Part shown: piece after piece, positions 1 to 19,802 of the stretch
Layout: each line of letters begins with the position of its first letter
How positions within the stretch are numbered: position 1 is the first letter of the stretch
Assembly: GCA_965197725.1 (NCBI GenBank)
Contig: CBDANQ010000052.1
Location: 1 to 64,000, forward strand
Reading direction: 5' to 3'
Origin: Longimicrobiales bacterium
Lineage (GTDB): Bacteria > Gemmatimonadota > Gemmatimonadetes > Longimicrobiales > Gaopeijiaceae
DNA length: 64,000 nucleotides
Notes under the pieces: model-generated
Told to the model about the DNA's origin: nothing
The model's database searches: none
Seen by the model: the letters and a program-made list of their open reading frames with translations, nothing else
Translations under genes and position numbers: made by a program

Positions 1-282
1 CGGCTTCCACGCGGCTCGAGTCAAAATCCTCGATGGAGTACCCTACGTGATCGACATACTGCTTTTCGCCGGGCTGGAGCCCGCCGCGGAGCCAGACCTG
101 CTGCGGTGGATCACCGAATTCACCACCGAACTCGACGACAGCCACTTTGCCGTCGTCGGACACTTTCCTCATCCCCCACAGATCCACGTAATAGTCGCGG
201 ACCTTGCCGTAATCGACACTGTTATGAGAAATGTGATTCATGGCGCTCGCTCGGAATGCCTCGAAGGTGGGCCTCGGGGCTG

Positions 283-1740
283 GAAGGTGTCCCCGGCTCA
301 GTTGAAGGTGGTGACTCCGAGGCTTTCGTGATTAACCTGCCATCTTCATTTCGGCAACCGGCTCGCGGTCATCGAGGTGAGCTTTGAGCATCCAGAGTTG
401 GTCGAAGCCGACGATGCGTCGGTAGTTCTTCTCGGTCTCGACGAAGGAGGCAGCGGCCCATCTCAGTGCCATCGCTCCGTTCTTCCAGTTCGTCACCCTA
501 TAGGTCTTCTGCCTCACGCCTGCGTGGGTGCTGTCGATCAGGTTCGTGGTGCCGAGGCACTTCCTCAGCCGAGGCGGTAGCCCAAGCCGGTTGATTGTGA
601 ACATCTCACCCAGCCCCTCCCTGAGGCTCGCTGCGGCCGACGGCTGATCTCGTTCAAGCCACCGCGCGAGCTGCTCGAGTTTCTGCACGCCGTCCCTCGC
701 ATCGAGCTTCCATGCTGCGCGGATCGCGGCCTTCACCTGCGGGTGCTGATCCTTCGGTAGGTGAGCGAGCACGTTTCTGAGCTTGTGATTTCGGCATCTC
801 TGGACCGAGTGGCCCGCGCCGAACACCTGAACAATCGCCTTCCGTAACGCCTTCGAGCCATCGATCACGAACAGGCGTCGACGCTCGGGGTCCAGACCCC
901 GCTCGACCAGATCCTGCAGCAGGGCCGTCGTCACTTCGGTGTTCTCACTCGCTCCCTGCCGCATCCCCAGCACGTGCTTCTTGCCGTCCGTGTCCACGCC
1001 CACAGCCGCAAGTACGTGGTGCGCACCGAGTTGGATACCGTCCAGGTAGATCACCAACAGATCCCATGCGTCCAGCCGCCGCTCCATCAGCTCCTTCAGC
1101 ACGCGCTCCGACGCTTCGATCGTCTCGCGGCTCACCGACGACTTGCTCACCCCCACCGTGTCGGCCATCTCGCCGATCACCTGGCCGTATTTCCGGGTGC
1201 TCACACCTGCCATCAGGATCTCCAACATTCGGTCCGCCATGGCGCCCGGCCTGCGCATCGCCTCGTACGCTGGCACCTCGACCTCGCCGCCCTGGCCGCC
1301 AGTCCGCTCACGCAGCCGAGGCCGCTGGATACGGACCTTTCGGTCCGACAGGTAGACCTGACCGCCCTGGCGGCCGTACCAGACCGTCGCCCCCCTCCTC
1401 GCGTGCCTTGCCCGATTGCTTCGGGCCCGCCACACCTTCGGCGCTCATCTCGAGTACCGCCTCGATCGTCGCTCGGCCCATCACCTGGACGACTTCGTCG
1501 ATCGCGAGCTCCGTGTGCTCTACGAGCTCGACCATCGGCAGCAGGAACTGGCCTTCTCGCTTCACGAACTCAGCCATCGCACGCCTGTCCGTGTCACTCG
1601 CTACTTCGTACGTTCTCTTCATCGTGGTGGCTCCGTTTTTGGGTTTTTAGCGCACCCGATCCTATCGGATCGGGCACCCTCGGAGCCACCACTTTTCTTT
1701 TCCCTCTTCAGGGACCTTCAACTACGGCTGGGTCAGCTTC
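283..1740 (-). mobile_element. IS256-family insertion sequence, copy 1
   Basis: Imperfect ~27-bp TIRs (GAAGGTGTCCCCGGCTCAGTTGAAGGT / ACCTTCAACTACGGCTGGGTCAGCTTC). 8-bp target duplication CGGGGCTG at 275-282 and 1741-1748. Confidence 0.95.
332..1622 (-). pseudogene. IS256 (Mutator-type DDE) transposase with a +1 frameshift near 1390
   Basis: ORFs 1308-1622 and 332-1435 together match the intact 429-aa copy at 35946-37235. There is one extra C in a C-run relative to that copy. Confidence 0.9.
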
Positions 1741-2510
1741 CGGGGCTGCCTCGTAAGCTGGCTTGGAGACCATCTTCTTGCGTGAGATCTTCTATGCTCT
1801 GCGCGTTGCCACCCCCGGGGAATACTGCCACCAGTGAGGACGGTTGGAGCCTGTAGCCCTCCGGATCGTCGGTGTGAATCATTTCGGGGCCATCATAGCT
1901 GTACGGCAGGCCACGAGCCTTCAATTCGGCTTCCATGGCGTCAAGTCTAAATTTTTCAATCGAGTACGCCATGTGACCTATAGCCGGCTTCGCGTTGGGA
2001 TCCCCATTCTGGCCCAGATAGATGAGGTTCCATGGAATTCCAAATCTGAGGGCGGTCGTGCTACCGTTGTCGAACACGGCTTCCATCCCGAGGAGATCGA
2101 TGTACCAGGCGCGGGTCTTCTTTTGATCGGGAACCGAATAAGAAATGTGACCGACGGAGATCGTTTTGGAAGGGGCCGCTGCGCGGATATGATTTCAACC
2201 ATTTCATCCTCGGAAGCCCCTCCTGAGGGGCCGCAGCACCACCCTCACCCTGCTGAGCACAAGCGCCGACCGATCCAACAACAGAGGCAGCCCCTGCCGT
2301 CAGGCCAAGAGCCTGAAGCAACTGCCGCCTGTTTATCTTTCCATTTTCCCAAATTCTGAAACAAATTGGAGATCACGGGTTTCATTTATTTCTCCTCTAG
2401 AAATATCGCAATATCCGCCAATTTTGCTTGTGTTCCGCGCACGCCAACTTTTACGCGCCTAGACTTTCCTCACCTGTTATCCTGGGAACTGCCGTTTCGT
2501 CCCGCCGTGC

Positions 2511-2625
2511 TTAGTTGTAAAAGTCGGGCGCGTACTTCTTCTTCTCGTACGACGCTTGGTCGTGGGCGATCCAGATCTGCGCTCTGTAAAACGACAGCAG
2601 GTCGGCCAAGCGCTGGTACGATCAA
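2511..2625 (-). pseudogene. C-terminal remnant of an MBL-fold AHL-lactonase-like protein
   Basis: Minus strand reads LADLLSFYRAQIWIAHDQASYEKKKYAPDFYN*, resembling lactonase C-termini. No N-terminus is present. Confidence 0.45.
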
Positions 2626-3031
2626 GAAGTCCACGGGCCTGGTGCACTAGACGGCAAAGTCCATTTCCCATGAACCCAGCGACGGCGGCGGCCCTGCACT
2701 AGCACCGGCCCCTCTGCCGGGAGAAGGGGGGTAAGCAGTCGGAAACCCCATGAAAAGTGAGCGTTTCTGTAGATCAAGTGGGTAATAATTATAGGGTAAT
2801 ATTCAATAATGCTACATGTCCTAAGGGTACGTAAGTAATTGTTCTACAACCATTTAGTATATGACCACCCAACTACCACATGTAGGCACAAAGGCTACCC
2901 CGTAGCTTCCCCGTACTTCCTCGCCTTTCCCTTGTACAACCCCAGTATTCACGCCACTTCTAGCCATCGAACTGCTTGCACCGAGGCTTCGCCGCTGTTC
3001 GCTCTGATGGACCCCTCATACCATGCCGCTT

Positions 3032-3801
3032 TCATCGGCGGACGAACACGAGGTCCTCATCGCTCGACAGCTGCGGCTCGAACGTATAGCCGTCTTCTCC
3101 GAACGCCTTCAGGCCGTCCGTATCCTCGACACGTTGTTGGACGATGAAACGAGCCATCCTTCCCCTGGCCTTCTTGCAGACGAAGCCGATGGTCTTCGGC
3201 GTGCCGTCCCGCATTTCCTTGAAGTGGCACGTGACGAACGGGCCCGGCCAGCCTCTGAGGCCGGATCGCTTTTATGTATTCGGCGGAGGCAAGTGAGACG
3301 ACCGTGCGATCCTCATGAGCGGCGGTCACCTCGTTACATGCGTCGGTGAGTCGTGATCCCCAGAATGAGTAAAGGTCCTTTCCCTCGCTGCGTGGACAGC
3401 TTAGAGCCCATCTCCAGGCGATACGGCTGAATGAGGTCGAGTGGCCGCAACATACCATACAGGCCAGAAAGAATACCGAGATGTTTCTGGGCGTACGTGA
3501 GATCGTCCTTGCTCAGAGTATCCGCATCGAGTCCTACGTAGGTGTCCCCGCGGAACATGAAGACGGCTTGTTTTCCGTTATTCTGAGAGAAGGGTATGGA
3601 ATACCGCTCATAGCAGGCTTGGTTTAGTTCCGTCAGCGCGTCCGAAAGGTTCATAAGAGCTTTCAGCCGCCTCTTTCCTAGGCTTTTGACGGTAGCCACG
3701 AGCTCTTCACTGTTGTCCAACTGCTGGGGAACCGTGAAGTCACCCAACCACGGTTCGTTTTCGGTATCCAGCTTCTTCGCGGGGGAAATCAAAGCGAGCA
3801 C
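3032..3801 (-). CDS. yaaA: YaaA/UPF0246 peroxide-stress protein; two frameshifts (~3380, ~3240)
   Basis: MLALISPAKKLD, ILSGLYGMLRPLDLIQPYRLEMG, DLYSFWG, SLASAEY and KKARGRMARF are spread over three overlapping ORFs. Confidence 0.85.
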
Positions 3802-4153
3802 GTTGTCCTTGTCCCGTTGGGGGCTCCAGTTACGAGATCGGTGACGTCGATCCGACCCAAATTGAAGCTAGTTACGTGGCCGCGTCGCGCCAGCGTCCCA
3901 CCGCGTCGGTGCCTATGCCGACGGATTCCTCACGTGCAGCGGCACCAGGATGAAGTCTTGGGAGGAGGTGCGGCTGGTGCCGAAACGTCCCCTAACTGCC
4001 CGACGCTGTTCAACCCCAACAGTAGGCGAGTCCACCCATCATCATGCCGCATGTGTGATAGACCCCTAAGCCTACGATGGCGTGTCAACGGCCATCGAAA
4101 GCTGCACAGGTCTGGCCATCGAAAATTGCACACTTGGCGGAGGTGACGAGCCT

Positions 4154-4294
4154 CTAGTTCGTCGTTTTCTCCTTTGCTCTTGCTCTCTTTCTCTTCGGGG
4201 GTGAAGGGCTCGACTCCGCAGGAGGCGAGTGGAGGATCTTGGAGAGGTCGGTGTGCTTGCGCATCCGGTAGCTGCTGCCGCGGATGTTGACGAT
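4154..4294 (-). pseudogene. istB: Detached 3' end of istB
   Basis: Reads IVNIRGSSYRMRKHTDLSK...TTN*, the conserved IstB C-terminus. It is in frame with the 5' part when joined at the ATGTTGACGAT repeat. Confidence 0.92.
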
Positions 4295-4632
4295 GTGTCT
4301 ACTCTGGATATAGCGTAAACAGCCACCATTATTGATGTTACGGGGTGTACACAGGATTGGCTTACCTCATTCCTTACCCCTTCCCGAACGGGAATCCAAT
4401 CGACCGCATCGGAGGACTTTGGACCCGAGGACGGGTTCCGGTCGATCACCGTCGTAGGGGGGCGGGCGCGTCTTCGTACCGCCTCGGCCATGTCCGCTTG
4501 GGTCCTCCCGCGGTGTTGGGATCGCGCCGGCGCACCCCCAAGTGGTGATACATTCATGGCATTGCGTCAAGCGCCCGAGGGGAGGCGTGTTGGCCCATGT
4601 GAACCGCGAAGCGCAAGCGGAGAGTCGTTGAG

Positions 4633-7485
4633 GTGATCGCGAACGAGTTCATTGCGAAGTGGCACGCGTCGGAGTTGAAGGAGCGCTCGGCGGCGCAGGA
4701 GCACTTCATCGACCTGTGCCGGCTGCTCGGGGAACCGACCCCTGCGGAGGCGGACCCCAAGGGGGACCGCTACTGCTTCGAGCGCGGCGCGCTGAAGGAC
4801 TCCGGCGGCGGGGGCTGGGCGGATGTGTGGAAGCGCCACTGCTTCGCCTGGGAGTACAAGGGGAAGCACGCGAACCTCGACGCCGCGTTCGACCAGTTGC
4901 GGTAGTACGCGCTCGCGCTGGAGAACCCGCCGTTGCTGATCGTCTCGGACATGAGACGGTTCCGGATCCGGACGAACTGGACCAACTCGGTCAGCAAGAC
5001 GCACGAGTTCGCGCTTGACGATCTCGTGGACGGCGCGGTACGCGACAAGCTCAAGTGGGCCATGTCCGACCCTGAGCGGCTGCGGCCGGGCGAGACCCGT
5101 CAGACGCTGACGGAACGGGCTGCCAAGCACTTCGCGCGGCTCGCGCAGTCGCTCAGGGACCAAGGCCACGGCCCCGAGGACGTGGCGCACTTCGTGAACC
5201 GCCTCGTGTTCTGCATGTTCGCCGAGGACGTGGGCCTGCTCCCCAACGACATGTTCACCCGCATGCTGAGGCGGGCGCGCCGGGAGCCGGAGAAGTTCGC
5301 GGACTTGGCGCGGAAGCTGTTCGGCGCGATGTCCACGGGGGGCGAGGTCGGGTTCGAGGACGTGGATTGGTTCAACGGCGGGCTGTTCGAGGACGATGCC
5401 GCCCTCCCCATGGACAAGGGGCAGATCGAGACGACGCTGGCGGCCTCCGGACTGGACTGGTCCAGCATCGATCCCTCGATCCTGGGCACGCTGTTCGAGC
5501 GGGGCCTTGACCCCGACAAGCGTTCGCAACTCGGGGCGCACTACACGGACCGGGACAAGATCATGCGGATCATCGATCCGGTGATCGTTCGCCCCCTGCT
5601 GGCCGAGTGGAAGACCGCGAAAGCTGGGATTGCCAAGAGGATCAAGCGCGCGAACTCCGCGAAGTCAAAGGGTGCGGAGACGCGGAACCGCAGGCAGGCG
5701 GAGAACGCGCTCGGCACGTTTCTGGAACGGCTGCGCAACTTCACCGTGCTCGACCCGGCCTGCGGCTCGGGCAACTTCCTCTACCTCGCGCTCCACGCTC
5801 TCCACGACATGGAGCACCAAGTCCAGTTGGAGGCCGAGGCGCTGGGTCTCCAGCGCGGCTTCCCTTCGGTCGGCCCCGCCAACGTGAAGGGGATCGAGTT
5901 GAACGCCTACGCGGCGGAACTGGCGCGGGTGTCGGTGTGGATCGGCGAGATCCAGTGGATGCGGAGGAACGGGTTTCCGGGCGCGCGGGAGCCGATCCTC
6001 GACCCATTGGAAACGATCGAGTGCCGCGACGCGATACTGACGGCCGACGGCGGGGAACCGGAGTGGCCCGAGGCGGATGTGGTCATCGGCAACCCGCCCT
6101 TCCTTGGCGGCAAGCTCCTCATCTCGAACCTCGGCGAGGAATACGTATCGACCCTGTTCCGGGTGTACGAGCGCCGGGTGCCCCGCGAGGCCGATCTGGT
6201 CTGCTACTGGTTCGTGAAGGCCGGTGAACGCTTGGGCGGCAAGACCTCGAAGCGGGTCGGCTTGGTCGCGACCAACTCGATCAGGGGCGGCGCGAACCGC
6301 CGGGCGCTCGAACGGGCAGCGCACGGTCGGCCGATCGTCGACGCGTGGAGCGACGAGCCGTGGGTGATCGACGGTGCCGCCGTCCGCGTCTCGCTGGTGT
6401 GCTTCTCGGAGGCGGACGGCGAACTCGCGCCGGACCGCCGCCTCGACGGCGAGACCGTTGACGAGATCTACACGGACCTCACGGCCCGACGAGGAGGCGC
6501 AGGCATCGACCTGACCAAGGCGAGGCGGCTCGCCCGGAACGCGGGCGTGGCCTTCATGGGCGACACCAAGGGCGGGCCGTTCGACGTTCCCGGAGACTTG
6601 GCGCGCGAGTGGCTGCGGGAGCCCGCGAACCCCAACGGCCGCCCCAACTCGGACGTGCTCAAGCCGTGGATGAATGGCATGGCCGTTACCCGGCGGCCCG
6701 CCGACAAATGGATCGTCGATTTCGGGTGGGAGATGGAGGAGGGAGACGCCACCCTGTACGAGTCTCCGTTCCAGCACATTCGCGAACACGTCCACCCGAT
6801 GCGGCAGAGAAACCGGATCGAAGAACACCGTCTCCGGTGGTGGCGGCATCTTCGACCGAGGCAGGAACTTCGAGAGGCGCTTGGCGGCCTGTCCCGCTAC
6901 ATCGCCACGCCGCGCGTGTCCAAACACCGCCTCTTCGTCTGGTTCGACATCCGGATCTGCCCCGACAGCGCCCTGATCGCCATCGCCCGCGAGGACGACG
7001 CCACGTTCGGCATCCTGCACAGCCGGTTCCACGAGGCTTGGTCGCTACGCATGGGCACTTGGCTTGGCAAGGGCAACGATCCGCGCTACACGCCCACGAC
7101 CACCTTCGAGACCTTCCCCTTCCCGGATGGACTCTCGCCCGACATCCCCGCCAGCGATTACAAGGCCGCTCCACGCGCCCGGGCCATTGCCTCGGCGGCT
7201 CGGCGGCTCGTCGAACTCCGAGACCGCTGGCTCAACCCGCCCGAGTGGGTCGAATGGGTCGCGGAACCCGTCCGAGGCTATCCCCCGCGCCCGATCCCGC
7301 GCGACAAGAAGGCGGCGACCGCGCTCAAGAAGCGGACGCTGACCAACCTCTACAACGCGCGACCGCAATGGCTCGCCGATGCGCATGCCCAACTCGACGC
7401 CGCCGTGGCCGCCGCCTACGGCTGGTCCGGCGACATCACCGACGACGTGGCGCTACGCGAACTGCTCGCACGGAACCGGCGCTGA
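4633..7485 (+). pseudogene. MmeI/YeeA-like Type IIG/IIL restriction-modification enzyme (N6-adenine MTase) with an in-frame TAG at 4903-4905
   Basis: N-terminal WADVW...WEYK nuclease-like motif, SILGTLFE, GAHYT, DPACGSGNFL (motif I), GNPPF (motif IV) and a C-terminal TRD. ORFs 4633-4905 and 4933-7485 are in the same frame, separated by one TAG. Confidence 0.85.
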
Positions 7486-7985
7486 TCTCGCCATCGAGAG
7501 CCAGCCGCCGGGGGCGGTCCAACGCGGAGGGCGACGTGTGCCGTCCGCCCCACGAACCGAGCCCCAAGCTCGGAATAGAAGGGGGGTTCGAAGGGGGGAG
7601 CGGAGCCACCCCTCGCCAGCCCCGTGTACCCACACGGGGTATGCTGGCTTAGCCACCTAAGAGTGGCTCAAGCCAGCCCTGCGGACGCCTCCGCAACGCC
7701 TGTCCGGGCACCGCCCGGAACAACGCCCGCCGAGCCGTCGCGGGCAAGCTCCTCCGCCTCTCGGTCGTCAGCCTCACGGACGGGGAGGGCGACGGGGGAC
7801 CCGTCAACTCCTTGGCGATGGCCGCGCCCTTTGCCGCGCCGCCGCTTTCCGCCCTACCCGTACCCCTCGGGGACCGGCGATCGTCGATCCTCGGCCATCC
7901 TACGGCCCGTAGGATAACCCGAAATGCCCCTGAGCCGCCCCGAAACGGCCTCTGAGCCCGTCGCGGAGGCGGAGGCACGTAAAGG

Positions 7986-9209
7986 TCAGGTCTCGGTGCC
8001 CGCTCTCCGGCCCGCGCGATACTCCGCCCAGTCATCCATGAGCCGACGACGCCGCTCGAACAGGTCCGTGCGCCGGTACGCGGCCTCCACCTTGTTCTGG
8101 ACGACGTGCGCCAGCGCCGCCTCGACCACCTCGCGGGGATGGTCCGTTTCCTCGGCGGCCCAATCCCGGAACGAAGACCGGAAGCCGTGCGGGACGGCCG
8201 CGATCTCCTGCTGCTGGAGCAGTTGGCGCAGCTGCCGGTCGGCGAGCGGCTGGCCGCCCTTCCGCGTGAAGACCAACGAACCGGACCTATCGTCCCGCTT
8301 CCGCGTCCCTTCGAGAAGCTCCAACGCCCGGCGGCACAACGGCACGCGGTGCTCCCGCTTCGCCTTCATGCGCGCTTCTGGAACCGTCCACACTCCCTCC
8401 GCCAAGTCGATCTCCGACCACTCGGCCCAACGGACCTCGCCCCATCTCGCCGCCGTCAGCACCAGGAACTCGAACGCCAGCTTGGAAACCGGCATCGCAT
8501 GCGAGGCCCACACCTTGTCCAGCGCCGACGCCACCTCGCGATGCGGCAAGGCTCGCATGTGCCGCACCATCGTCTCCTGCGACCCGAGGAACGACGCCAC
8601 GCGGTCGGCGGGGTTGTCGGTCCGGAACTCCATCGCCACGGCCCACTCCAGTACCGTGCGGATGCGCTGGCGCAGCACGCGGGCCGTGGGTGCCCTCGTG
8701 TGCCAGATCGGACCGAGGATCTCGAGCATGTCGCCGCTCGTCACCTCCGTGATGAGCGTCCGACCGATGCGCGGGAATGCGTAGCGCCTCAGGCTCGCCA
8801 TCCAGTCATGGGCCTGCCTCGGGTTGCGCCAACCGGACCGCTTCTGCTCCACGACGCGCTCGGCGGCTTCGGCAAACGTCGGCATCCCTTGGGCGCGGCG
8901 CTTCTCGGCGAGCGGATCGCCGCCCTCGCGGGCCAGCTTGCGGTTCGCCCGCGCCTTCTCCCGTGCTTCGGCGAGCGAGACCAGAGCCACGCCTCCGAGT
9001 CCGAAGTCCCGCCGCCGTCCGCGGATGACGAGCCGCTGGACCCAGCTTCGGGCTCCGCTCGGCTGGACGAAGAGGTAGAGCCCGTTGCCGTCGCAATATC
9101 TGCCCGGCGGTGCGGAGGGCACGAACGCGGCCGAGAGCCGCTTGTGCGGATGGCGGCCCTTGGGCTTGGTCTTGCGGCGCGGAGCGGGTGCGTGGCTTAC
9201 TTCATTCAT
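7986..9209 (-). CDS. P4-like tyrosine integrase with N-terminal arm-binding domain
   Basis: DGNGLYL...SWVQR...GLG arm domain. Catalytic residues all present: R (TAARWGE), K (MKAKREH), HxxR (HGFRSSFRDW), H (LAH), Y (AAYRR). Start at ATG 9209 is inferred. Confidence 0.93.
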   Translation of the reverse strand: MNEVSHAPAPRRKTKPKGRHPHKRLSAAFVPSAPPGRYCDGNGLYLFVQPSGARSWVQRLVIRGRRRDFGLGGVALVSLAEAREKARANRKLAREGGDPLAEKRRAQGMPTFAEAAERVVEQKRSGWRNPRQAHDWMASLRRYAFPRIGRTLITEVTSGDMLEILGPIWHTRAPTARVLRQRIRTVLEWAVAMEFRTDNPADRVASFLGSQETMVRHMRALPHREVASALDKVWASHAMPVSKLAFEFLVLTAARWGEVRWAEWSEIDLAEGVWTVPEARMKAKREHRVPLCRRALELLEGTRKRDDRSGSLVFTRKGGQPLADRQLRQLLQQQEIAAVPHGFRSSFRDWAAEETDHPREVVEAALAHVVQNKVEAAYRRTDLFERRRRLMDDWAEYRAGRRAGTET

Positions 9210-9346
9210 TCCATCATAATATGGAGGATGCCACGGGATTTCAAGGGACCGTGCCGGGAACGGAAGACAGGTTATGATAGGCATAACCCTATGTTATACA
9301 ACGATATTAGAGACTATAGGGGATGTCCTTGGACGCTGGTGGACTT

Positions 9347-10066
9347 CTAGTGTATGTTGACGATATGGCAGTGATGCAGCAGGCGATCGATGAGCGCAGC
9401 GGCCATGACCTCGTCGCCCAAGATCTGGCCCCACTCCTCGAAGCCTTTATTGGAGGTCAGCACAGTGGATGCGCGCTCATAGCGCCGGTTGATGAGTTGG
9501 AAGAAGAGCATTGCGCCGGTCTGGCTGACCGGCAGGTAGCCGATCTCGTCGATGACCAGGAGCGAAGGATAGGTGAGGATCTTGAGGCGGCGTCCCAGCT
9601 GGCCGGTGGTCTTGGCTTCTTCGAGCGAGGTGATGAGGTCGGCCAGAGCGCCGTAGTAGACTCTGCGCCCGCTCTGAGCCGCGGCAATGGCGAGGCTGAT
9701 CGCGAGATGCGTCTTGCCGACGCCCGGAGGGCCGAGGAAGATCACGTTCTCCTTACGCTCCAAGAAGCCGAGCTCGTGGAGCGAGTCGATCTGCTCGCGC
9801 TTGATCGAGGGCTGGAAGCTGAAGTCGAAGTCGTCGAGGGTCTTGATGCCCGGTAGCCGGCTCGAGCGCATCGCAGCCTGAAGGCGGCGGTTGTTGCGCA
9901 GCGTGATCTGGGCACCGAGGAGTTGCTCGATGGCCTCCGAGGCCGTCACGCCTCCGCCATCGACCCCGGTGAGGACGTCGTCGATGGCCTCCAGCGCACC
10001 GGGCATCTTGAGATCGGCGAGCTGGGCTCGGATCCGGTCACGGCGAGAGCGAGCGGCAGCCTTCAT
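9347..10066 (-). pseudogene. istB: IS21 helper ATPase IstB, 5' part (truncated by the insertion)
   Basis: Walker A GPPGVGKT, LLVIDEIGY, LTSNK, IDRLLHH. Ends abruptly at HIVNIH*. Confidence 0.93.
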
Positions 10067-11091
10067 CGGTCCCCTCCCGCGATCTGGGCATAGGCCGTGA
10101 GGGGACGTCGCTCGACGTGGATGGCCGGCAAGGACGTCGTGCCGGGTGAGGAGCGATCCGGAGGCAGGACGAGGGGGTGATACGGGCGAGTCGCCAAGGG
10201 CTCGAGGAGCAGTCGTTCACGCTCGAAGCGATCGAGGGGCCGCTCCTTCAGCGTTCCGTGGCTGCGCACATTGGCTTCCGTCTCAAGCCAATGAAGGGCC
10301 TGCGCGTTGAGATCGTCGTCCGACGTGAAGGTGCGCCCGTAGAAGAAGCTCTCCCTGAGGTAGCGGATCGGCCGCTCCACCTTGCCCTTGGTCTGAGCCC
10401 GATAGGGTCGGCACGCTCGGATCCTGAAGTTCCAGTGGTAGGCGTAGCGCATGAACTCCGGGTTCTCGACGAGGGCACCATCGTCGTATCGACCGTCCTC
10501 GATGACGACCGCCTTCATTTGGTCGAACAGAAGCTCTGAGGGCACGCCGCCGAAGTAGGAAAACGAAGACTCCAGGCCATGCATCAGGGCCTTCATGGTC
10601 TGCCGGGTGTAGAACTGAACCCACAGCAGCCTCGAGTAGCCCAGCACGACGATTAGTGCGTAACGCTTGCCCCACGGTAGCCGGAAGTGGGCGAAGTCCA
10701 CCTGGCCCTGACGCCCAGGCGCCGTCTCGAAGCGCACGACCGGCTCCTCTGGGGGTCGAGGCCGGACCTTGCGTACATAGCGCTTCACTTGGTTGTAACT
10801 GCCCGGGTAGCCAGCGGCCCGGACCTCCTTGAAGAGCCGTACAGCCGTGAGCTTCGGGTACTCCTTGAGACGCGTGTCGATCAACGGCTTGTACGGATCC
10901 AGCTTCGACGGCATCAGACATCTCGGACCGTACCCGACACGCTCTTCGTCCAACTCCCGGTCCAGTTGACCGGTCTCTATCCAGTGGTACACGGTACGGC
11001 GACTGACCCCCAGATCCCGGGCGATCACCGCCTTGTTCATCCCCTGCTCGAGGTAATGACGGAGCAGCACGCGCTTCTCCCTTCCGATCAT
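10063..11091 (-). CDS. istA: IS21 transposase IstA
   Basis: HTH, RFETAPGRQGQVDF, LGYSR, FGGVP, KGKVER. Overlaps istB by 4 nt. Confidence 0.95.
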   Translation of the reverse strand: MIGREKRVLLRHYLEQGMNKAVIARDLGVSRRTVYHWIETGQLDRELDEERVGYGPRCLMPSKLDPYKPLIDTRLKEYPKLTAVRLFKEVRAAGYPGSYNQVKRYVRKVRPRPPEEPVVRFETAPGRQGQVDFAHFRLPWGKRYALIVVLGYSRLLWVQFYTRQTMKALMHGLESSFSYFGGVPSELLFDQMKAVVIEDGRYDDGALVENPEFMRYAYHWNFRIRACRPYRAQTKGKVERPIRYLRESFFYGRTFTSDDDLNAQALHWLETEANVRSHGTLKERPLDRFERERLLLEPLATRPYHPLVLPPDRSSPGTTSLPAIHVERRPLTAYAQIAGGDR

Positions 11092-11250
11092 TGCACCTCC
11101 ACGTTCTCGGTGGAGGCGCCAAGTGAGTGGATCGGCCGGAAGATCGCTCGGGGTGGTGCCTACATCCCCACTCTCCCGCCCGCTAGGTCAAAGCGCCAAG
11201 TGTGCAATTTTCGATGGCCACATGTGTGCAATATTGGAAGGCCGCTAACA

Positions 11251-11420
11251 CATTCTGCCGGTACTGTGTAGAGAACGTACTGGAGCTTGACTGCCCCAAT
11301 TGCGGAGGCGGATTCGTGCCTCGGCCCATTCGACCGGCGACGCTGCTCTCCAAGTTTTCGGCCTCGACGAGGCGCGTGTTGCGGGAAGACGGCTGCGAGA
11401 CGTCAGAAGTCGTGGCGTAG
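11251..11420 (+). pseudogene. DUF1272-family protein, 5'-truncated by the IS21 end
   Basis: FCRYCVENVLELDCPNCGGGFVPRPIRP begins immediately at the IS end. The N-terminal half is absent. Confidence 0.7.
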
Positions 11421-11531
11421 CTCGCAAGGTCGACTTCAAGTCGCGGAAGGACCTGGTGGCTCGCGGTTTACTGACCTGCGCCGCATCTTGAGCGCATGGA
11501 CGCCATCACCAACGCAGCCCTGGGACCTCCC

Positions 11532-12741
11532 ATGCCCACACTACATCACCTCACCGCCGGCCTTATTCTCCTCGCCGCCGCATCCTCCGCCGAGGCACAG
11601 ATCCCGAGTCAGGAGCCGGATTCCGCCGGGGTCTACGAGTCCGCTCGGCACAACTTCCAGGTCGTCACCGTGGTGGAGGGTCTGGAGTACCCATGGTCGA
11701 TGGCGTGGCTGCCGACTGGTGAGATGCTCGTCGTGGAGCGGCCGGGCCGCCTCCGCATCGTTCGCGATGGGGTGCTAGACCCGAATCCCGTCAGCGGATT
11801 CCCAGCCGTGTATCGTCAGCGCGGACAGGGCGGCTTCATGGACGTTGTCCTACACCCCGACTTCGCGCAGAACCGGCTAGTCTACCTGACCTATGGGAAG
11901 CCGGACGAAGACGACTCGATGGGCACCACCACCGTGGTGCGAGGCCGTTTCGAGGATGACCGCGTCGTCGGCGTCGAGGAGATCTTCGAATCCGTTGCCT
12001 GGCATGGAAACAACAACCACTTCTCGGGGCGCATGACCTTCGACCACGAGGGATACCTGTACGTGGCGGTCGGCGACCGCTTGGCACCGCCGGACCTGCT
12101 CGCGGACCACCCAGCCCAGGATCTCACCAACCACATGGGCACGATCGTGCGCCTGCACGACGACGGGCGTGTGCCGTCGGACAACCCGTTCATCGGCCAT
12201 GCCACAGCCCTTCCGGAGATTTGGAGCTATGGCCACCGCAACATGCAGGGACTCGCGACCGATCCCATCTCGGGCGTGGTCTGGGTCGAACGAGCACGGT
12301 CCCCGAGGTGGTGATGAGCTGAATCTGATCCTGCCTGGCCGCAACTACGGCTGGCCGGTCGTCTCCCACGGCATCAACTATGACGGCTCGGTATTCACAC
12401 TCGAGGAGCACGTACCATGGATGGAAGCCCCGCGCTTCGTGTGGACCCCATCGATCGGGACCTCGGGCATGACGATCTACTCTGGCGATCGCTTCCCCTG
12501 GTGGCGGGGCAGCGCCCTGGTCGCGGGCATGAGGGGGGAGCGGCTCGTTCGCGTCTCTCTCATCGGCCGAGACGCGGTGAGCGAAGAGACGCTCCTCCAC
12601 CGACAGCTCGGCCGCATACGGGACGTGCGTGAGGGGCCCGACGGACTGATCTACCTAGCGCTCGAAGATGCGGACGGAGGCCTGACTCCGATCGTTCGGC
12701 TGGAGCCGGTCGACGGAGAGGTTGCGCCGCCGCGTCGCTGA
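11532..12741 (+). CDS. PQQ-dependent sugar dehydrogenase (YliI/Asd-like), frameshift near 12283
   Basis: Signal peptide, GLEYPWSMAWLP, GQGGFMDV, EIWSYGHRNMQG. Continues in another frame as NEHGPRGGDELN...NYGWP...GRIRDV. Confidence 0.88.
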
Positions 12742-12882
12742 CCATTCGGAGCGGGGGAAGGAGTCCCCGAGAGCGTGGCTCCGCCTAACACCATTAAGAA
12801 GGACAGGGTCAAGAGGATGCAGTGATCCTGAGAGCGGCGGGCAAAGCACGTCGCCTTTTTGTAGTGGGTTCAGAGGCGCAGA

Positions 12883-13537
12883 TCATCCGAGGCGCGTGCG
12901 CAGCAGGTCACGGCCCGATGGGAATCGCTGGATGTCTCCGACGAACGAGACGAGCGCCGTCGCGGTGAGGACGCCGATACCGGGCACGGTCATGAGAAGC
13001 TTGGCATCAGGCAGCTGCTTGGTCAGGTGCTCGAGCGAACGCTGCAGACTCTTGGCCTTCTCACGCAGCATCTCGATCTCGTCTAGAACATCTTGGAGTG
13101 CGTGGCGCAGGTAGGCCGGGACCACCTCATCGTCGAGCGCTCGGCGTGCATGCGGGATCACCTGCTTTGCCCCAACCGGGATCGTGACCCCGAACTCGCG
13201 CAGGTGCCCGCGCACGGCGTTCACCCGTGCGGTGCGGGTTTCCAAGTAGCCTGAGCGCAGACGATGAAGCGCAGCGATTGCCTGCTGGTCGACCGATTTG
13301 ACGGGGACCGGATCGATCGCATCGTTACGGGCCGCCTCGAGCAGTGCCTTGGCGTCCTCACGATCGGTCTTGTTCCCGTCCCGGTAGCGACTCACGTCAC
13401 CGGGCGGAAGCAGCGAGACTCGATGTCCCATCGCCTCGAAACAGACGATGCCGCTCATGCACATGGCCCGGCTGGTGCGACACCGCCACCTCGAACACCG
13501 ACTTTGCGAGATCCACCGCAACTTGCGTAGTCTTCAT
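12883..13537 (-). pseudogene. Degenerate IS110/IS1111-family transposase
   Basis: MKTTQVAVDLAKSVFEVAV start, NKTDREDA, LMTVPGIGVLTA. Internal deletion and C-terminal truncation. Confidence 0.85.
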
Positions 13538-13660
13538 CTCGGACTTCCTCCTCCATGTGTGGCCTTCGGGGCCGTTTCTTGTGTGCGGGGGGGTGGCCCA
13601 GCAGAATCACAATCCGGTAGGCGGCTCCTCGCGAGCGACCGGATCCGAAGGAGGACCTGC

Positions 13661-14296
13661 ATGAGCTCAGACGAGAGACCCAGCATCGAGCCGATGCCCG
13701 ACGGGCCCTACCTGGTGAAGAACCTGCAGCACTTCTCCAACCGGAAGGGAGCCATCGAAACCCGTGCCACCCTGGCGCTGTGTCGCTGCGGCGGATCAGC
13801 CAACAAGCCGTTCTGCGATAGGACGCATGCAAGGATTGGATTCTCCTCTGTCAAACTCGAGGACCGTGTACCGAACAAGCGAGAAGACTACGAGGCTGAA
13901 AGGATCACCATTCACGACGACCGCGGTATTTGCGCTCATGCTGGGCGTTGCACCGATGGACTCTCCTCGGTGTTCCGCTCGAAGCAGGAGCCCTGGATCG
14001 ATCCGCAAGGGGCACCCCCGGAGGAGATCATCGAGACGATCCGGAAATGCCCGTCGGGGGCGCTCAGCTACACGGTCGATGGCGTAGAGCACCGCGACCG
14101 GGAGGGCCCTGCGGCGATCTTCGTCTCCCCGAACGGCCCCTATGTGGTCACGGGTGGACCGCAGCTGCTCGACACGCCGTGCGGAGAAGGTGCTTCAACG
14201 GAGCATTTCACACTGTGCCGCTGCGGTGGATCGAAGAACAAGCCGTTCTGTGACGGCTCGCACGGGTATAACAACTTCAATGACGACAAGAACTGA
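13661..14296 (+). CDS. CDGSH iron-sulfur domain protein (two CDGSH motifs flanking a divergent 4Fe-4S domain)
   Basis: LCRCGGSANKPFCDRTH, CAHAGRC...CPSGAL, LCRCGGSKNKPFCDGSH. RBS GGAGG. Confidence 0.92.
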   Translation: MSSDERPSIEPMPDGPYLVKNLQHFSNRKGAIETRATLALCRCGGSANKPFCDRTHARIGFSSVKLEDRVPNKREDYEAERITIHDDRGICAHAGRCTDGLSSVFRSKQEPWIDPQGAPPEEIIETIRKCPSGALSYTVDGVEHRDREGPAAIFVSPNGPYVVTGGPQLLDTPCGEGASTEHFTLCRCGGSKNKPFCDGSHGYNNFNDDKN

Positions 14297-14893: not shown

Positions 14894-15248
14894 CACCCAG
14901 TGAAGGGACATGGGTGACAGTCGTGGAGGCTAAGAAGGTGAGTTGAACGTCCTCCCGCCGATGGAGTCAGAAGCGTACGCTGCGGAGGATGGTGTGCCCA
15001 TTCCAGGCAATAGGAACGCTGGAGCGTTTCACTAGCGGGCGTTCATTATGACCGGCATGCCGAATCTCCATGTGCTCCAAAGATCAGCGTTCTCGATGAG
15101 CTCAACTATGAAGTGAGCGACATTTGCACGGGCGATAGGGCGGCCCGTGAAGATACCTGTGGTCGGGGACGGTTCTAGGTCATAGGGAGAGATCTCAGCG
15201 TTGATCAACAAGTCTGGACGAACACTGCACCACTCCACGTGCTTACTT

Positions 15249-16705
15249 GAAGCTGTCCCAACCGTAGTTGAAGGTCCCTGATAGGGGAGAAAGAAAAGTG
15301 GTGGCTCCGGGGGTCCCGGGCCGATAGGCTCGGGTAGGCAAAAACCCCAACACGGAGCCACCACGATGAAGAGAACGTACGAGGTAAGGGATCGGGCGGA
15401 CAAGCGAGCGATCAGGGAGTTCCTGAAGCGGGAGGGGCAGTTTCTGCTTCCGATGCTTGAGCTCGTGGAGCAGACGGAGGTCGCGATCGACGAAGTCATC
15501 CAGGTGATGGGACGAGCGACGATCGAAGCGGTGCTGGAGATGAGCGCCGAGGGTGTGGCAGGCGTGAAGCAGGCAGGTCGGTCACGAGCGGAAGACGACA
15601 CGGTGTGGTATGGCCGGCAGGGTGGTGTGGTTTACCTGTTGGACCGGAAGGTGCGTGTGGAGCGGCCACGGCTCAGGCGCCGGGGCGCCGGGGAGGGTGG
15701 CGAGGTCGAGGTGCCGGCGTACGCAGCGATGCGGAGACCGGGCGCCGTGGCGGATCGGATGCTCGAGGTCCTGATGGCGGGGGTGAGCACGCGAAAGTAC
15801 GGCCGTGTGATCGGTGAGATGGCCGACACGGTCGGGGTGAGCAAGTCGGCGGTGAGCCGTGAGACGGTCGAGGCCTCGGAGCGCGTGCTGAAGGAGCTGA
15901 TGGAGCGCCGGCTGGATGCGTGGGACCTCCTGGTGATCTACCTGGACGGGATCCAGATGGGCTCGCACCACGTGCTTGCTGCGGTAGGCGTGGACTCAGA
16001 CGGAAAGAAGCACGTGCTGGGCGTGAGGGAAGGAGCGAGTGAGAACGCCGAGGTGACCAGCGCGCTCCTAGAGGATCTGGTCGAGCGCGGCCTGGACCCG
16101 GGCAGGCGGCGGCTGTTCGTGATCGATGGCTCGAAAGCGCTCAGGAAGGCGATCGAGAAGGTGTTCGGCCAACGTCACCCCATCCAGCGCTGCCGCAACC
16201 ACAAGCTCCGCAACGTGCTGGGTCATCTGCCGAAGGATCAGCATCCTCAGGTGAAGGCGGCGTTCCGGGCGGCGATGAAGCTGGACGCGAAGCAGGGCGA
16301 GCAGAAGCTCGAGCAGCTCGCCCGATGGCTCGAGCGCGACCACCCCTCGGCCGCAGCCAGCCTGCGCGAAGGCCTCAGCGAGATGTTCACCATAAACCGG
16401 CTCGGCCTCCCACCGCGGCTGAGGAAGTGCCTGGGCTCGACCAACCTGATCGACAGCACCCACTCGGGCGTAAGACGGAAGACCCGCAGGGTGACTAACT
16501 GGAAGAACGGAGCGATGGCCTTGCGCTGGGCTGCGGCCTCGTTCGTGGAAACCGAGAAGAGCTACCGGAGGATCATCGGCTACGACCAGCTCTGGATGCT
16601 CAGGGCCCACCTCGACGACCATGAACCGGTTGCCGAAATGAGAAAGACAGGCTAACCAAGAGACTCTCCGGCGCCACCACCTTCAACTGTCAGCGGGACA
16701 CCATC
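15249..16705 (+). mobile_element. IS256-family insertion sequence, copy 2 (diverged)
   Basis: TIRs related to copy 1. 8-bp TSD GCTTACTT at 15241-15248 and 16706-16713. Confidence 0.95.
15366..16655 (+). CDS. IS256 transposase (intact, 429 aa)
   Basis: GVSTRK, IYLDG, FVIDGSKAL, QRCRNHK, STNLIDS. Confidence 0.95.
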   Translation: MKRTYEVRDRADKRAIREFLKREGQFLLPMLELVEQTEVAIDEVIQVMGRATIEAVLEMSAEGVAGVKQAGRSRAEDDTVWYGRQGGVVYLLDRKVRVERPRLRRRGAGEGGEVEVPAYAAMRRPGAVADRMLEVLMAGVSTRKYGRVIGEMADTVGVSKSAVSRETVEASERVLKELMERRLDAWDLLVIYLDGIQMGSHHVLAAVGVDSDGKKHVLGVREGASENAEVTSALLEDLVERGLDPGRRRLFVIDGSKALRKAIEKVFGQRHPIQRCRNHKLRNVLGHLPKDQHPQVKAAFRAAMKLDAKQGEQKLEQLARWLERDHPSAAASLREGLSEMFTINRLGLPPRLRKCLGSTNLIDSTHSGVRRKTRRVTNWKNGAMALRWAAASFVETEKSYRRIIGYDQLWMLRAHLDDHEPVAEMRKTG

Positions 16706-17422
16706 GCTTACTTCCCTTGCCCACGCTCTGATGGAGATGCTCTGCCGCAGTTTCGTTATCGCGATGCGGAGGCACGGTGTGACGCAAGACGGCCAGGAGC
16801 CACTGCTCAAACCAGGCTCTCTTCTCTTCGAGGTCGGGATTCCGGACCCCCACCGTGTTCATGAGAATGAACTTGGTGGGTCTGGTGGGTCGGTTCTCTT
16901 CAATGGCGTTGCACAGGCGCCGAGCCGCGTCCGTGCACAGTCTTCGCGGCTCTCCGAACAGCCCCTTTAGGTCCATGACATGTCCCAAGCAGGAGACCAC
17001 GGCATCACAATCCCTTACATGTTCTGCCATCTCCTCATCGGTCAAGTCGAGCACACTCGCTTCAATGACGGTGGAGTTTGGGTGATCCAGAACCTCGGCA
17101 GGGAGTTTGCGAGGCGAGCGCACGACGGCGCGAACCGTGTGACCCTTGCTCAGCAACTGCGCGACTAGGGCCCGCCCCGTCATGCCTGTCGCTCCAACCA
17201 CTAGTATCGTCATGGGCGTGCTCATCCGTTGGCCGGTGTTTCAGGAGCTGCTCTCGGGTTCGGCCTTTCTCTCACGCGGCCCGTCGCGTAATCGTTTGGG
17301 AGGCGAAGGTAACACGGACAAGGTGGCGAGCGGCAAGCGACCGGAGTACCACCTTGTATGACGACGAATAGGTAGTTTCGTTGGGTACACAGGGTCGGTA
17401 GCCCGTCCCGCCTAGGGTCCTA

Positions 17423-18620
<1,198 letters not shown>

Positions 18621-18626
<6 letters not shown>

Positions 18627-19506: not shown

Positions 19507-19802
19507 AACACTTATCAGGCCCCCGGAGTCAAGAGCGCGCATGTCCCCCGGCGCGTCGCGGAGCGGCGCGTAATGAAGTGAGCGTCGGTCGTCGAGTCCT
19601 CTGACTTGGTTTCCGTCAACAGGTGCGAGCACTTCCGAGCTCTGCACCAAACACTTATCAGGCCCCCGGAGTCAAGAGCGCGCATGTCCCCCGGCGCGTC
19701 GCGGAGCGGCGCGTAATGAAGTGAGCGTCGGTCGTCGAGTCCTCTGACTTGGTTTCCGTCAACAGGTGCGAGCACTTCCGAGCTCTGCACCAAACACTTA
19801 TC
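19507..19802 (+). repeat. Perfect tandem duplication of a 143-bp unit at the IS1111 end
   Basis: Units 19507-19649 and 19650-19792. AACACTTATC recurs at 19507, 19650 and 19793. Confidence 0.95.

What the first reader, a model, noticed from the sequence alone, without database searches (positions are those of the whole stretch)
4284..9364. Integrase element that uses IS21 istB as its attachment site: a mobile element parasitising a transposon
Seen: ATGTTGACGAT flanks a 5,070-bp segment. Precise excision rebuilds ...HCHIVNIRGSSYRMRK..., a full ~280-aa IstB. The integrase has all catalytic residues, and a 15-bp motif near both ends looks like arm-type sites. Established: P4-like integrases normally target tRNA/tmRNA or conserved housekeeping genes, and IstB is required for efficient IS21 transposition. 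Inference: the element targets a conserved istB codon block. It would switch its host IS off while integrated and back on when excised, and could be carried between the IS21 ends if IstB is supplied in trans. I do not know of a described family with this target.
Basis: partly seen in the sequence, partly recalled or inferred. Interest (0 to 1): 0.88.

Follow-up and report, generated by a model that had tools for sequence, protein, structure and literature searches.

The report
Integrase island inside an IS21 copy
A small two-gene mobile island driven by a site-specific integrase has landed precisely inside the helper gene of one jumping-gene copy, but its relatives land in many other genes, so this looks like one tolerated landing and not a dedicated parasite of that jumping gene.

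Summary
An 11-bp direct repeat (4284-4294, 9354-9364) brackets 5,059 bp of island DNA. Removing the island in silico gives a sequence 2099/2099 identical to an intact IS21 copy elsewhere in the genome. The island carries an intact P4-type tyrosine integrase and an MmeI-like restriction/methylase gene with an in-frame TAG.

The island is single-copy, and the 15 other IS21-borne copies of the 11-mer are empty. None of 158 homologue loci (38-76% identity) has istB upstream of the integrase. Sister clades sit at 3' ends of PQQ-dehydrogenase genes or at GTCACCGTCAC (VTVTV) codons of surface-protein genes. The three closest relatives flank an MFS gene, a BNR gene and an unassigned ORF.

Four insertions that interrupt transposase genes occur in these IS-rich Gemmatimonadota (the window, G002a, G002c, G007), but they are scattered on the integrase tree. 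In this genome IS21 carries 15 of the 17 free copies of the core; the other two lie in SDR genes (IVNI/M codons).

Most likely this is short-core site-specific integration into an abundant, harmless target. Switching and hitch-hiking are untested. An unchecked earlier scan note reports a serine-recombinase element in istB on other DNA.

The parts
4082..4139 (.). IS21 terminal inverted repeat, istB-side end of the IS
   Evidence: 58-nt arm, 83% complementary to 11194-11251. Alignments to other IS copies start at window 4081-4083.
4154..4294 (-). Displaced 3' fragment of istB (IVNIRGSSYRMRK...TTN plus stop)
   Evidence: Translation. Contiguous with the 5' part in intact copies.
4284..4294 (.). 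Left copy of the 11-bp direct repeat (core of the junction far from the integrase)
4295..9353 (.). Island-specific DNA, 5,059 bp, single copy in the genome
   Evidence: The only full-length match in the own genome is itself. Absent from the other IS21 copies. GC is 66-71% in the coding part against 57-65% in the flanks.
4358..4372 (+). Left copy of the 15-nt motif; candidate arm-type site, unproven
   Evidence: 14 of 15 identical to 9193-9207. Chance level 21 of 2000 shuffles. No equivalent pair found in 5 relatives, using provisional far ends.
4633..7485 (+). MmeI-like type IIL restriction/methyltransferase gene, broken by an in-frame TAG at 4903-4905
   Evidence: The part upstream of the stop hits MmeI_N. 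The 850-aa part from 4933 hits MmeI_hel and MmeI_Mtase, and TRD and C domains below the cut-off. Homologues L080 and L102-L104 read Leu at the stop position. In 4 metagenome runs every contig laid there reads C instead of T at 4903.
7986..9284 (-). Tyrosine integrase (P4/CP4-type architecture), 432 aa, apparently intact
   Evidence: Pfam domains. R280, K307, H366, R369, H393, Y403 invariant in 126 of 126 homologues. N-terminal domains match solved CP4-like integrase domains.
9193..9207 (+). Right copy of the 15-nt motif, inside integrase codons 26-31
9285..9353 (.). Integrase-proximal arm of the island (AT-richer, partly conserved among relatives)
   Evidence: Alignments of integrase-upstream regions.
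9354..9364 (.). Right copy of the 11-bp direct repeat (core of the integrase-proximal junction)
   Evidence: It lies 70-80 nt upstream of the integrase start. In relative L044 the repeat lies 75-91 nt upstream.
9347..10066 (-). Truncated istB (239 aa: 237 native residues plus IH, then a stop supplied by the island)
   Evidence: IstB_IS21 profile positions 2-224 of 238 are retained.
10063..11091 (-). istA transposase (HTH plus rve), 342 aa
   Evidence: Identical to other copies.
11194..11251 (.). IS21 terminal inverted repeat, istA-side end of the IS

Best explanation
A 5.06-kb integrative island entered one copy of a multi-copy IS21-family element. It did so by ordinary tyrosine-integrase site-specific recombination between its attP and an 11-bp identical core (ATCGTCAACAT on the istB strand, codons I-V-N-I).

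The island carries a P4/CP4-type tyrosine integrase and an MmeI-like restriction/methylase gene that now has a nonsense codon.

The integrase belongs to a clade that uses short cores inside protein-coding genes, not tRNA genes. Gene choice follows wherever the core sequence occurs. In this genome IS21 copies hold almost all copies of the core, and an insertion there costs the cell nothing, so it persists.

The hit IS copy now makes a 239-aa IstB lacking its last 43 residues. The other copies are untouched.

What is shown: the precise insertion, the core, the intact integrase, the target spectrum of relatives, and the distribution of the core in the genome.

What is inferred: that the integrase made the junctions, that the truncated IstB is inactive, and that neutrality explains retention.
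For: - Precise insertion: in-silico removal gives 2099/2099 identity to an intact IS copy.
- The integrase is intact, with the catalytic set conserved 126/126.
- The repeat sits where relatives have theirs. A CGTCA-type motif lies at about the same offset in the attP region of the window, L037 and L044.
- Relatives are flanked by imperfect repeats of 11-31 nt, 3.7-5.8 kb apart. The best cases are L037 (17 nt perfect, about 31 nt imperfect) and L044 (17 nt perfect, about 65 nt imperfect).
- Target spectrum of 77 scanned flanks: 23 PQQ dehydrogenase, 10 Ig-like/LRR/autotransporter surface proteins, 11 other named families, 3 integrases, 3 transposase-related (two full-length, one inside a truncated integrase gene), 27 with no Pfam hit, 0 IstB.
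- Only 1 of 79 loci has a tRNA within 600 nt upstream.
- G007 and G002b have near-identical integrases (end branches 0.013 and 0.007). They share the sequence from GCATCAACAC inward but have unrelated flanks. Gene identity therefore does not decide the site.
- The 11-mer occurs 19 times in the 3.0-Mb genome: 2 island repeats, 15 in other IS21 copies, 2 in adh_short genes.
- 7.7% of the assembly is repeats of at least 400 bp at 95% identity or more.
Against: - Only one integration event of this particular integrase is known. Its nearest relative is 74-78% identical, so its own site preference is unmeasured.
- Three other elements from the same two genera also interrupt transposase genes: G002a, G002c and G007, all in IS3-family orfB. 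G002a and G002c are diverged elements at the same IS3 nucleotide. That could mean IS genes are favoured targets and not merely tolerated ones.
- The same 11-mer is kept at the HIVNI codons of a 79%-identical IstB in another order (L045). istB could therefore be a durable attB.
- Excision, circle formation and integrase activity were not shown.
Confidence: 0.6

Rival explanations
1. Dedicated istB parasite. The element's normal attB is the conserved HIVNI codon block of IS21-family istB. It silences its host IS while integrated, restores it on excision, and can ride between the IS21 ends.
For: - Precise insertion in istB.
- The 11-mer is conserved at the same codons in a 79%-identical IstB of a Longimicrobiales MAG.
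- At least 10 full-length intact IS21 copies could supply IstB in trans.
- Other elements of the wider clade interrupt IS3 orfB.
- An unchecked earlier scan note (e1-3225026) reports a serine-recombinase element recurrently in istB in Actinobacteria.
Against: - 0 of 158 homologue loci have istB upstream of the integrase.
- The three nearest integrases are not in IS genes.
- 15 of 16 IS21-borne copies of the core in the same genome are empty.
- There is no second copy of the island or of an IS21-plus-island composite.
- In L045 a related island lies 4 kb from an intact, unoccupied istB site.
- Transposase-interrupting copies need 3 label changes on the tree; shuffled labels do as well in 52 of 500.
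- No excisionase was found.
Confidence: 0.12
2. Secondary-site event. The island's primary attB is elsewhere, for example the G-x-IVN(I/M)-S-S codons of short-chain dehydrogenase genes, a large paralogous family. istB was hit because its HIVNI codons mimic that core.
For: - The only two non-IS copies of the 11-mer in the genome lie in adh_short genes at that motif.
- One of them (G000:C60, around 69255) shares 16 contiguous nucleotides with the reconstructed attP, against 11 for istB.
- Sister clades target conserved coding motifs of multi-copy families: PQQ dehydrogenase 3' ends and VTVTV codons.
Against: - Both SDR sites are empty.
- No relative was found in an adh_short gene among 77 scanned flanks.
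- The 16-nt match was noticed after the fact. My rough estimate of chance, given two sites and two sides, is about 0.004.
Confidence: 0.15
3. Assembly artefact. The island was joined to IS21 fragments by misassembly of a repeat-rich metagenome-assembled genome.
For: The IS is present in at least 12 near-identical copies, and the genome is a 61-contig, 88.9%-complete assembly.
Against: - The two IS fragments abut exactly, with one shared 11-mer and no loss or gain.
- A contig from an independent run (X1) crosses the right junction at 9119-9402. One from X15 reaches 27 nt across the left junction.
- Relatives show the same architecture: integrase about 70-90 nt from a direct repeat.
Confidence: 0.02

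Closest known systems
P4/CP4-57-type tyrosine-integrase genomic islands
   Same: Same three-domain integrase (Arm-DNA-bind_3, Phage_int_M, Phage_integrase). The N-terminal domains match solved CP4-like integrase domains. The integrase gene sits at one end and reads away from the upstream target part. Direct repeats flank the island.
   Different: The target is a protein-coding gene of an insertion sequence, not a tRNA or tmRNA gene. The identity block is only 11 bp and the target's 3' end is not replaced, so the target gene is truncated. No AlpA/Vis/Xis-like gene was detected.
Helper-embedded PICIs: an integrase clade that repeatedly targets prophage late genes (PMC10111431; passages read)
   Same: A tyrosine-integrase element integrated inside a gene of another mobile element, with no replacement sequence in attP, so the target is disrupted ('regulated gene integrity'). 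The paper's discussion also notes one PICI (EcCIDi14) lying in an IS110 transposase gene.
   Different: There the targeting is recurrent across many genomes and is tied to helper-phage biology, with excision shown experimentally. Here there is a single event, no helper relation, and relatives sit at unrelated genes.
Mobile restriction-modification units linked to integrases (PMC2853133; only the search listing and abstract start seen)
   Same: A restriction-modification gene as the sole cargo of a small integrase-bearing unit.
   Different: Here the cargo gene carries a nonsense codon. Relatives of the island carry LRR, Sel1 or other cargo instead.
Serine-recombinase mini-element in the P-loop codons of istB
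   Same: A site-specific recombinase element inside an IS21-family istB gene.
   Different: A different recombinase class (large serine recombinase), a different site in istB, and a different phylum.
Integrative mobilizable elements of streptococci that integrate into genes of conjugative elements (recalled, from no call)
   Same: A site-specific element nested in another mobile element.
   Different: The host elements are conjugative elements, not an IS, and targeting there is recurrent.

Membership tests
Tyrosine recombinase, P4/CP4-type integrase | Arm-binding N-terminal domain, core-binding domain and catalytic domain | tested here: met
   Pfam: PF13356 8.1e-18, PF22022 1e-22, PF00589 1.9e-16. 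PDB sequence hits to CP4-like integrase N-terminal domains.
Tyrosine recombinase, P4/CP4-type integrase | Catalytic R...K...HxxR...H...Y set | tested here: met
   R280, K307, H366, R369, H393, Y403 are each invariant in 126 of 126 aligned homologues. Assignment to roles is by recalled motif order.
Tyrosine recombinase, P4/CP4-type integrase | Element bounded by direct repeats (attL/attR core), with the integrase gene next to one of them | tested here: met
   11-bp repeat. The integrase start is 70 nt from the right repeat. Precise empty site in other IS copies.
Tyrosine recombinase, P4/CP4-type integrase | Integration next to the 3' end of a tRNA or tmRNA gene (typical, not obligatory) | tested here: not met
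   0 tRNA genes in window 1-14000. 1 of 79 homologue loci has a tRNA within 600 nt upstream.
Tyrosine recombinase, P4/CP4-type integrase | Excision to a circle (attP) and an empty attB | tested here: inconclusive
   Logan contigs of 4 runs show no back-joint among the rows listed, and 205 joints were not listed. The 5,070-bp skip seen in all 4 runs is what the other IS21 copies give anyway.
IS21 family insertion sequence | istA (HTH plus DDE/rve) followed by istB (AAA+ IstB_IS21) | tested here: met
   (rve 3.8e-12; IstB_IS21 3.5e-75). Intact IstB is 280 aa in the C41 copy.
IS21 family insertion sequence | Terminal inverted repeats and multiple near-identical copies | tested here: met
   58-nt inverted repeats, 83% complementary. 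At least 10 full-length copies at 99.9-100% identity.
MmeI-like type IIL restriction-modification enzyme | MmeI_N nuclease, helical spacer, gamma-class N6-adenine methyltransferase (NPPF), TRD and C domains in one polypeptide | tested here: inconclusive
   Domains found: MmeI_N 4.8e-06, MmeI_hel 2.7e-15, MmeI_Mtase 8.5e-28, with TRD and C below the curated cut-off. NPPF is seen in the translation. The reading frame is broken by TAG at 4903-4905 where homologues have Leu.
   0 of 79 genome loci and 0 of 79 metagenome loci. 0 of 77 flank scans with an IstB domain.
   1 of 16 IS21-borne copies of the core is occupied. The island is single-copy.
Regulated gene integrity / reversible gene switch | Excision restores the target gene under some condition | not testable with these tools
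   The restored junction is identical to the 15 other IS21 copies. No directionality factor was recognised.

The most novel reading that the evidence does not exclude
The island belongs to an integrase clade in which each sublineage recognises a short core that coincides with a conserved coding motif of a multi-copy sequence family. Examples are the 3' ends of PQQ-dehydrogenase paralogues, VTVTV codons of Ig-like surface-protein genes, one fixed nucleotide of IS3 orfB, and the IVNI codons shared by IS21 istB and SDR genes. On this reading, repeated DNA, including insertion sequences, is the clade's chosen safe harbour. That would allow several island copies per genome and, for IS-borne copies, possible transport by the IS.
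Probability: 0.22. Interest if true: 0.6.

Novelty: new member of a known kind. Interest (0 to 1): 0.38.

Why it matters
If istB were a dedicated target, this would be a new kind of parasite on a transposon. The evidence points instead to an ordinary integrative island whose short core happens to be most abundant in IS21 copies.

What remains useful is a clean, base-exact example of one mobile element nested in another by site-specific recombination. There is also a clade-level pattern worth a proper study. These integrases avoid tRNA genes and use short cores in protein-coding DNA. They reach 4-5 copies per genome in some Vicinamibacterales records. In IS-rich sponge-type Gemmatimonadota they turn up repeatedly inside transposase genes.

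Such short-core integrases could also interest people who look for integrases with programmable or relaxed targets.

Tried and rejected
1. Looked for an attP circle or alternative island flanks in public data. Contigs of 4 runs were laid on 3800-9900. No back-joint appeared among the rows listed, but 205 joints and 1930 loose ends were not listed. The 5,070-bp skip is uninformative because other IS21 copies give it. No verdict.

2. Looked for a closer relative of the integrase, to measure its own site preference. The genome contigs best hit is 76% and the metagenome contigs best is 74%. Among 61 related genomes only 3, including the own genome, have a match at E <= 1e-60. None is close enough.

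3. Tried to find the far junctions of the two IS3-borne elements in G002. The IS3 remainder is not near them. One IS3 piece starting at about the right nucleotide exists at G002:C3:1752367, but its left flank does not give a clean repeat. Unresolved.

4. Looked for an excisionase. 7 small ORFs in 4295-4648 and 7416-7955 gave no Pfam hit at E <= 1e-5. Small directionality factors are easily missed.

5. Tested the 15-nt motif as a conserved arm site. No pair of 13-mers with at most 1 mismatch was found between the two ends of L095, L107, L037 or L046, and the single pair in L044 is GC-rich and looks like chance. The far ends of L046, L095 and L107 rest on short repeats and may be wrong.

6. The PDB sequence search gave only N-terminal-domain hits, so no catalytic-domain alignment came from it.

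7. The careful tree search did not finish in the time allowed. The quick IQ-TREE tree with SH-aLRT support was used. Rows with internal stops or lacking either end were dropped, leaving 77 rows.

8. Paper PMC7192596 (mapping of integrative elements) is not held. Its target-gene lists might contain transposase targets that I could not see.

9. Considered a target-site duplication made by a transposase. Rejected: the island has no transposase gene, and relatives have imperfect repeats of variable length (11-31 nt), as att sites do.
Full report
**1. What is there**

The 11-mer ATGTTGACGAT occurs exactly twice in the window, at 4284-4294 and 9354-9364. On the minus strand, 9354-10066 encodes IstB residues 1-237, ending LLHHCHIVN. 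The stretch 4157-4294 encodes IVNIRGSSYRMRK...TTN, followed by a stop. Pfam places the first part in IstB_IS21 (3.5e-75, profile positions 2-224 of 238). The gene upstream of it (10063-11091, minus) is an HTH-plus-rve IstA. Inverted repeats of 58 nt (83% complementary) at 4082-4139 and 11194-11251 close the IS.

The own genome is 3.0 Mb in 61 contigs, 88.9% complete. It holds at least 12 near-full-length copies of this IS. I removed 4295-9364 in a script. The remainder is identical in 2099 of 2099 columns, without a gap, to the copy at C41:14462-16560, and 99.9% identical to nine other full-length copies. The intact IstB is 280 aa. The interrupted one is 239 aa, ending IH*. The insertion is therefore exact: 5,059 bp of foreign DNA plus a second copy of the 11-mer.

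**2. The island**

It has two genes.

- The integrase (7986-9284, minus, 432 aa) has the Arm-DNA-bind_3, Phage_int_M and Phage_integrase domains. Its R280, K307, H366-x-x-R369, H393 and Y403 are each invariant in 126 of 126 aligned homologues. Calling these the catalytic set rests on my recall of the family. PDB sequence matches are confined to the N-terminal domains of CP4-like integrases.
- The cargo (4633-7485, plus) is an MmeI-like type IIL enzyme gene with MmeI_N, MmeI_hel and MmeI_Mtase, plus weak TRD and C domains. It has a TAG at 4903-4905 where homologues L080 and L102-L104 read Leu. In four metagenome runs, every contig laid at 4903 reads C (CAG) and not T. The stop is therefore private to this assembly. 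It is either a real nonsense mutation or an assembly error; I cannot tell which.

No excisionase-like ORF was recognised: 7 small ORFs gave no Pfam hit at E <= 1e-5. The island is single-copy in the genome. Its coding part is 66-71% GC, against 57-65% around it.

It is matched by chance in 21 of 2000 shuffles. Its right copy lies inside integrase codons 26-31. I found no equivalent pair in five relatives, whose far ends are provisional.

**3. Is the assembly right?**

The two IS pieces abut exactly. A Logan contig from run X1 crosses the right junction (9119-9402). One from X15 reaches 27 nt across the left junction (4268-4705), which is under the tool's 31-nt bridging rule. Relatives show the same layout. 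I put misassembly at about 2%.

**4. Do relatives use istB?**

- No close relative exists. The best hit is 76% in genome contigs (79 loci kept out of 423 relatives) and 74% in metagenome contigs (79 loci kept out of 571).
- Among 61 related genomes, 3 (including the own genome) have a match at E <= 1e-60.
- tblastn with IstB and IstA finds no locus with istB upstream of the integrase, 0 of 158. L045 has an intact IS21 relative 4 kb downstream, and L155 has one downstream of an integrase fragment.

I scanned the two longest ORFs overlapping the 100-500 nt upstream of the integrase in 77 loci (154 ORFs; L060 and L061 had too little flank). The results:

| Flank | Loci |
|---|---|
| PQQ dehydrogenase, same strand, ORF ending at the junction | 23 |
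| Ig-like, cadherin, CARDB, Calx-beta, LRR or autotransporter proteins | 10 |
| Other named families (MFS, BNR, pilin-type N_methyl, relaxase, M56, CesT twice, FeoB, CNNM, GNAT, ADH) | 11 |
| Another integrase, head to head | 3 |
| Transposase-related | 3 |
| No Pfam hit | 27 |
| IstB | 0 |

The transposase-related flanks are not interrupted target genes. L066 and L079 are full-length, so they are IS insertions beside the island. L111 is a weak HTH_21 hit next to a truncated integrase gene.

Only 1 of 79 loci has a tRNA within 600 nt upstream.

**5. The tree**

A quick IQ-TREE of 77 integrases (the careful search did not finish) gives:

- a PQQ clade (28 rows, 21 labelled PQQ, support 97);
- a clade of 14 rows (support 100), 12 of them labelled Ig_surface, 10 of which carry the shared junction GTCACCGTCAC(TGTAG) in the printout; that motif reads V-T-V on both strands;
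- a clade of the window with L037, L038 and L039 (support 99).

The flanks of those three are an unassigned ORF, an MFS gene and a BNR gene.

The four rows that interrupt transposase genes are the window, G002a, G002c and G007. They need 3 label changes on the tree, and shuffled labels do as well in 52 of 500 trials. Site choice is therefore conserved within the two large clades, but 'IS gene' is not a clade trait.

**6. Architecture of the site**

In relatives, repeats flank the islands:

- L037: 17 nt perfect (about 31 nt imperfect), 3,673 bp apart.
- L044: 17 nt perfect (about 65 nt imperfect), 5,460 bp apart.
- L095 (13 nt) and L107 (11 nt) are weaker cases.

I anchored the integrase-proximal arms on the shared AGCGTCCAAGG. 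On that anchor the window's repeat overlaps the position of L044's repeat. All three of window, L037 and L044 carry CGTCA there, and G007/G002b carry CATCA. The window's 11-mer thus sits at the canonical core position. Beyond the 11 bp, attP and istB share only 12 of 40 flanking positions on each side (C41 row), and attP supplies no replacement for the lost 43 codons.

**7. Why IS21?**

The 11-mer occurs 19 times in the genome: the 2 island repeats, 15 in other IS21 copies (all empty), and 2 elsewhere. Both of the latter lie in adh_short genes at the G-x-IVN(I/M)-(S/T)-S motif. One of them, at C60 around 69255, shares 16 contiguous nucleotides with attP.

IS21 thus supplies 15 of the 17 free copies of the core. 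Repeats make up 7.7% of the assembly, and an insertion in one of about 16 IS copies is harmless. That is enough to explain the location.

The same 11-mer is kept in a 79%-identical IstB of a Longimicrobiales MAG (L045), where it is unoccupied.

**8. Evidence pointing the other way**

In the same genus (G002) and family (G007), three other elements of the wider clade interrupt IS3-family orfB.

- G002a and G002c lie at the same nucleotide (position 558 of a 1,272-bp IS with at least 14 copies at 97% identity or more in G002).
- Their IS flanks are 98.3% and 99.6% identical to an intact copy. The two IS-plus-integrase stretches are only 92.0% identical to each other. This suggests two independent hits by diverged elements.
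- Their island side encodes an integrase-like tail, QEWADYLDRCAVSSS. In the own genome (C29) the same kind of element follows the real 3' end of another integrase gene. The IS3 site may therefore itself be secondary.
- I could not find the far junctions.

G007 and G002b have near-identical integrases in different genera, with unrelated flanks that meet at GCATCAACAC. This is direct evidence that a short core, not a gene, is what is recognised.

**9. Literature**

- PMC10111431 (passages read) describes an integrase clade that repeatedly targets prophage late genes without a replacement sequence. It says integrative elements can target other mobile elements, and mentions a PICI in an IS110 transposase gene.
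- My searches for an integrase element in istB or IS21 found no described case.
- PMC7192596 is not held.
- An unchecked note from this scan (e1-3225026) reports a serine-recombinase element recurrently in the P-loop codons of istB in Actinobacteria. I did not test it.

**10. Verdict**

- The element is an ordinary kind of thing, a small tyrosine-integrase island, in an unusual but not unprecedented place.
- The switch and hitch-hiking ideas are untested.
- The broader pattern, a tRNA-avoiding short-core integrase clade that favours multi-copy coding motifs and shows up in transposase genes of IS-rich genomes, is the part that may deserve follow-up.

Noticed in passing
window 4903-4905: The MmeI-like gene has an in-frame TAG where homologues read Leu. 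All contigs laid there from four metagenome runs read C at 4903, giving CAG. This is either a private nonsense mutation or an assembly error.
   Followed up: partly
L062-L101 (Vicinamibacterales loci): A subclade of the same integrase family sits at the 3' end of PQQ-dependent dehydrogenase genes: 23 of 77 scanned flanks. One chromosome record can hold 4-5 copies: OZ253664.1 and OY760734.1 have 5 loci each, OZ242323.1 has 4. The target is a paralogous gene family.
   Followed up: partly
L040-L051, L054, L095, L107: Another subclade inserts at GTCACCGTCAC(TGTAG), codons for V-T-V-T-V that read V-T-V on either strand. The sites lie in Ig-like, cadherin, CARDB or LRR surface-protein genes. Its islands (about 5.3-5.8 kb) carry LRR proteins. 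L037 carries a Sel1-repeat ORF.
   Followed up: partly
G000:C29:1-1900 (L036); L033:8796-10602 and 17512-19325: Elements of the G002a/G002c/C29 type carry, on their integrase-proximal arm, an ORF tail QEWADYLDRCAVSSS resembling an integrase C-terminus. In C29 it continues the 3' end of another integrase gene. This suggests islands that insert at the end of a resident island's integrase gene.
   Followed up: partly
L041, L088, L099, L100, L103, L104: Pairs of related integrase genes lie head to head, with tens to a few hundred nucleotides between them. Unexplained.
   Followed up: no
G000:C60 around 69255 (L220) and G000:C58 around 135282 (L221): The only non-IS copies of the 11-mer lie in short-chain dehydrogenase genes at the IVN(I/M) motif. 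The C60 site shares 16 contiguous nucleotides with the island's attP.
   Followed up: partly
L033/L034 (G002:C2:138000-168000): A 30-kb junkyard holds three full-length integrases of this family (68-72% identical to the window's), plus a C-terminal fragment and a short remnant. It also holds several IS3 copies and an MmeI-like gene fragment (89% identical to the window's protein, residues 464-590) that abuts an IS3 end.
   Followed up: partly
window 273-1743, 12883-13521, 15233-16709, 17352-18520, 19647-21257, 35914-36604, 38708-40219: The window holds several other repeated elements. These include a Mutator/IS256-type transposase gene at 332-1435 and an IS110-type fragment at 12883-13521. 7.7% of the assembly is repeats of at least 400 bp at 95% identity or more.
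   Followed up: no
L035:7057-7278 and L219:10368-10590: The same 223-bp internal IS3 piece (from about position 560 to 781) occurs at 98% identity in two genera, G007 and G002, next to integrase islands. It may be a relic of an island junction that travelled with the island.
   Followed up: no
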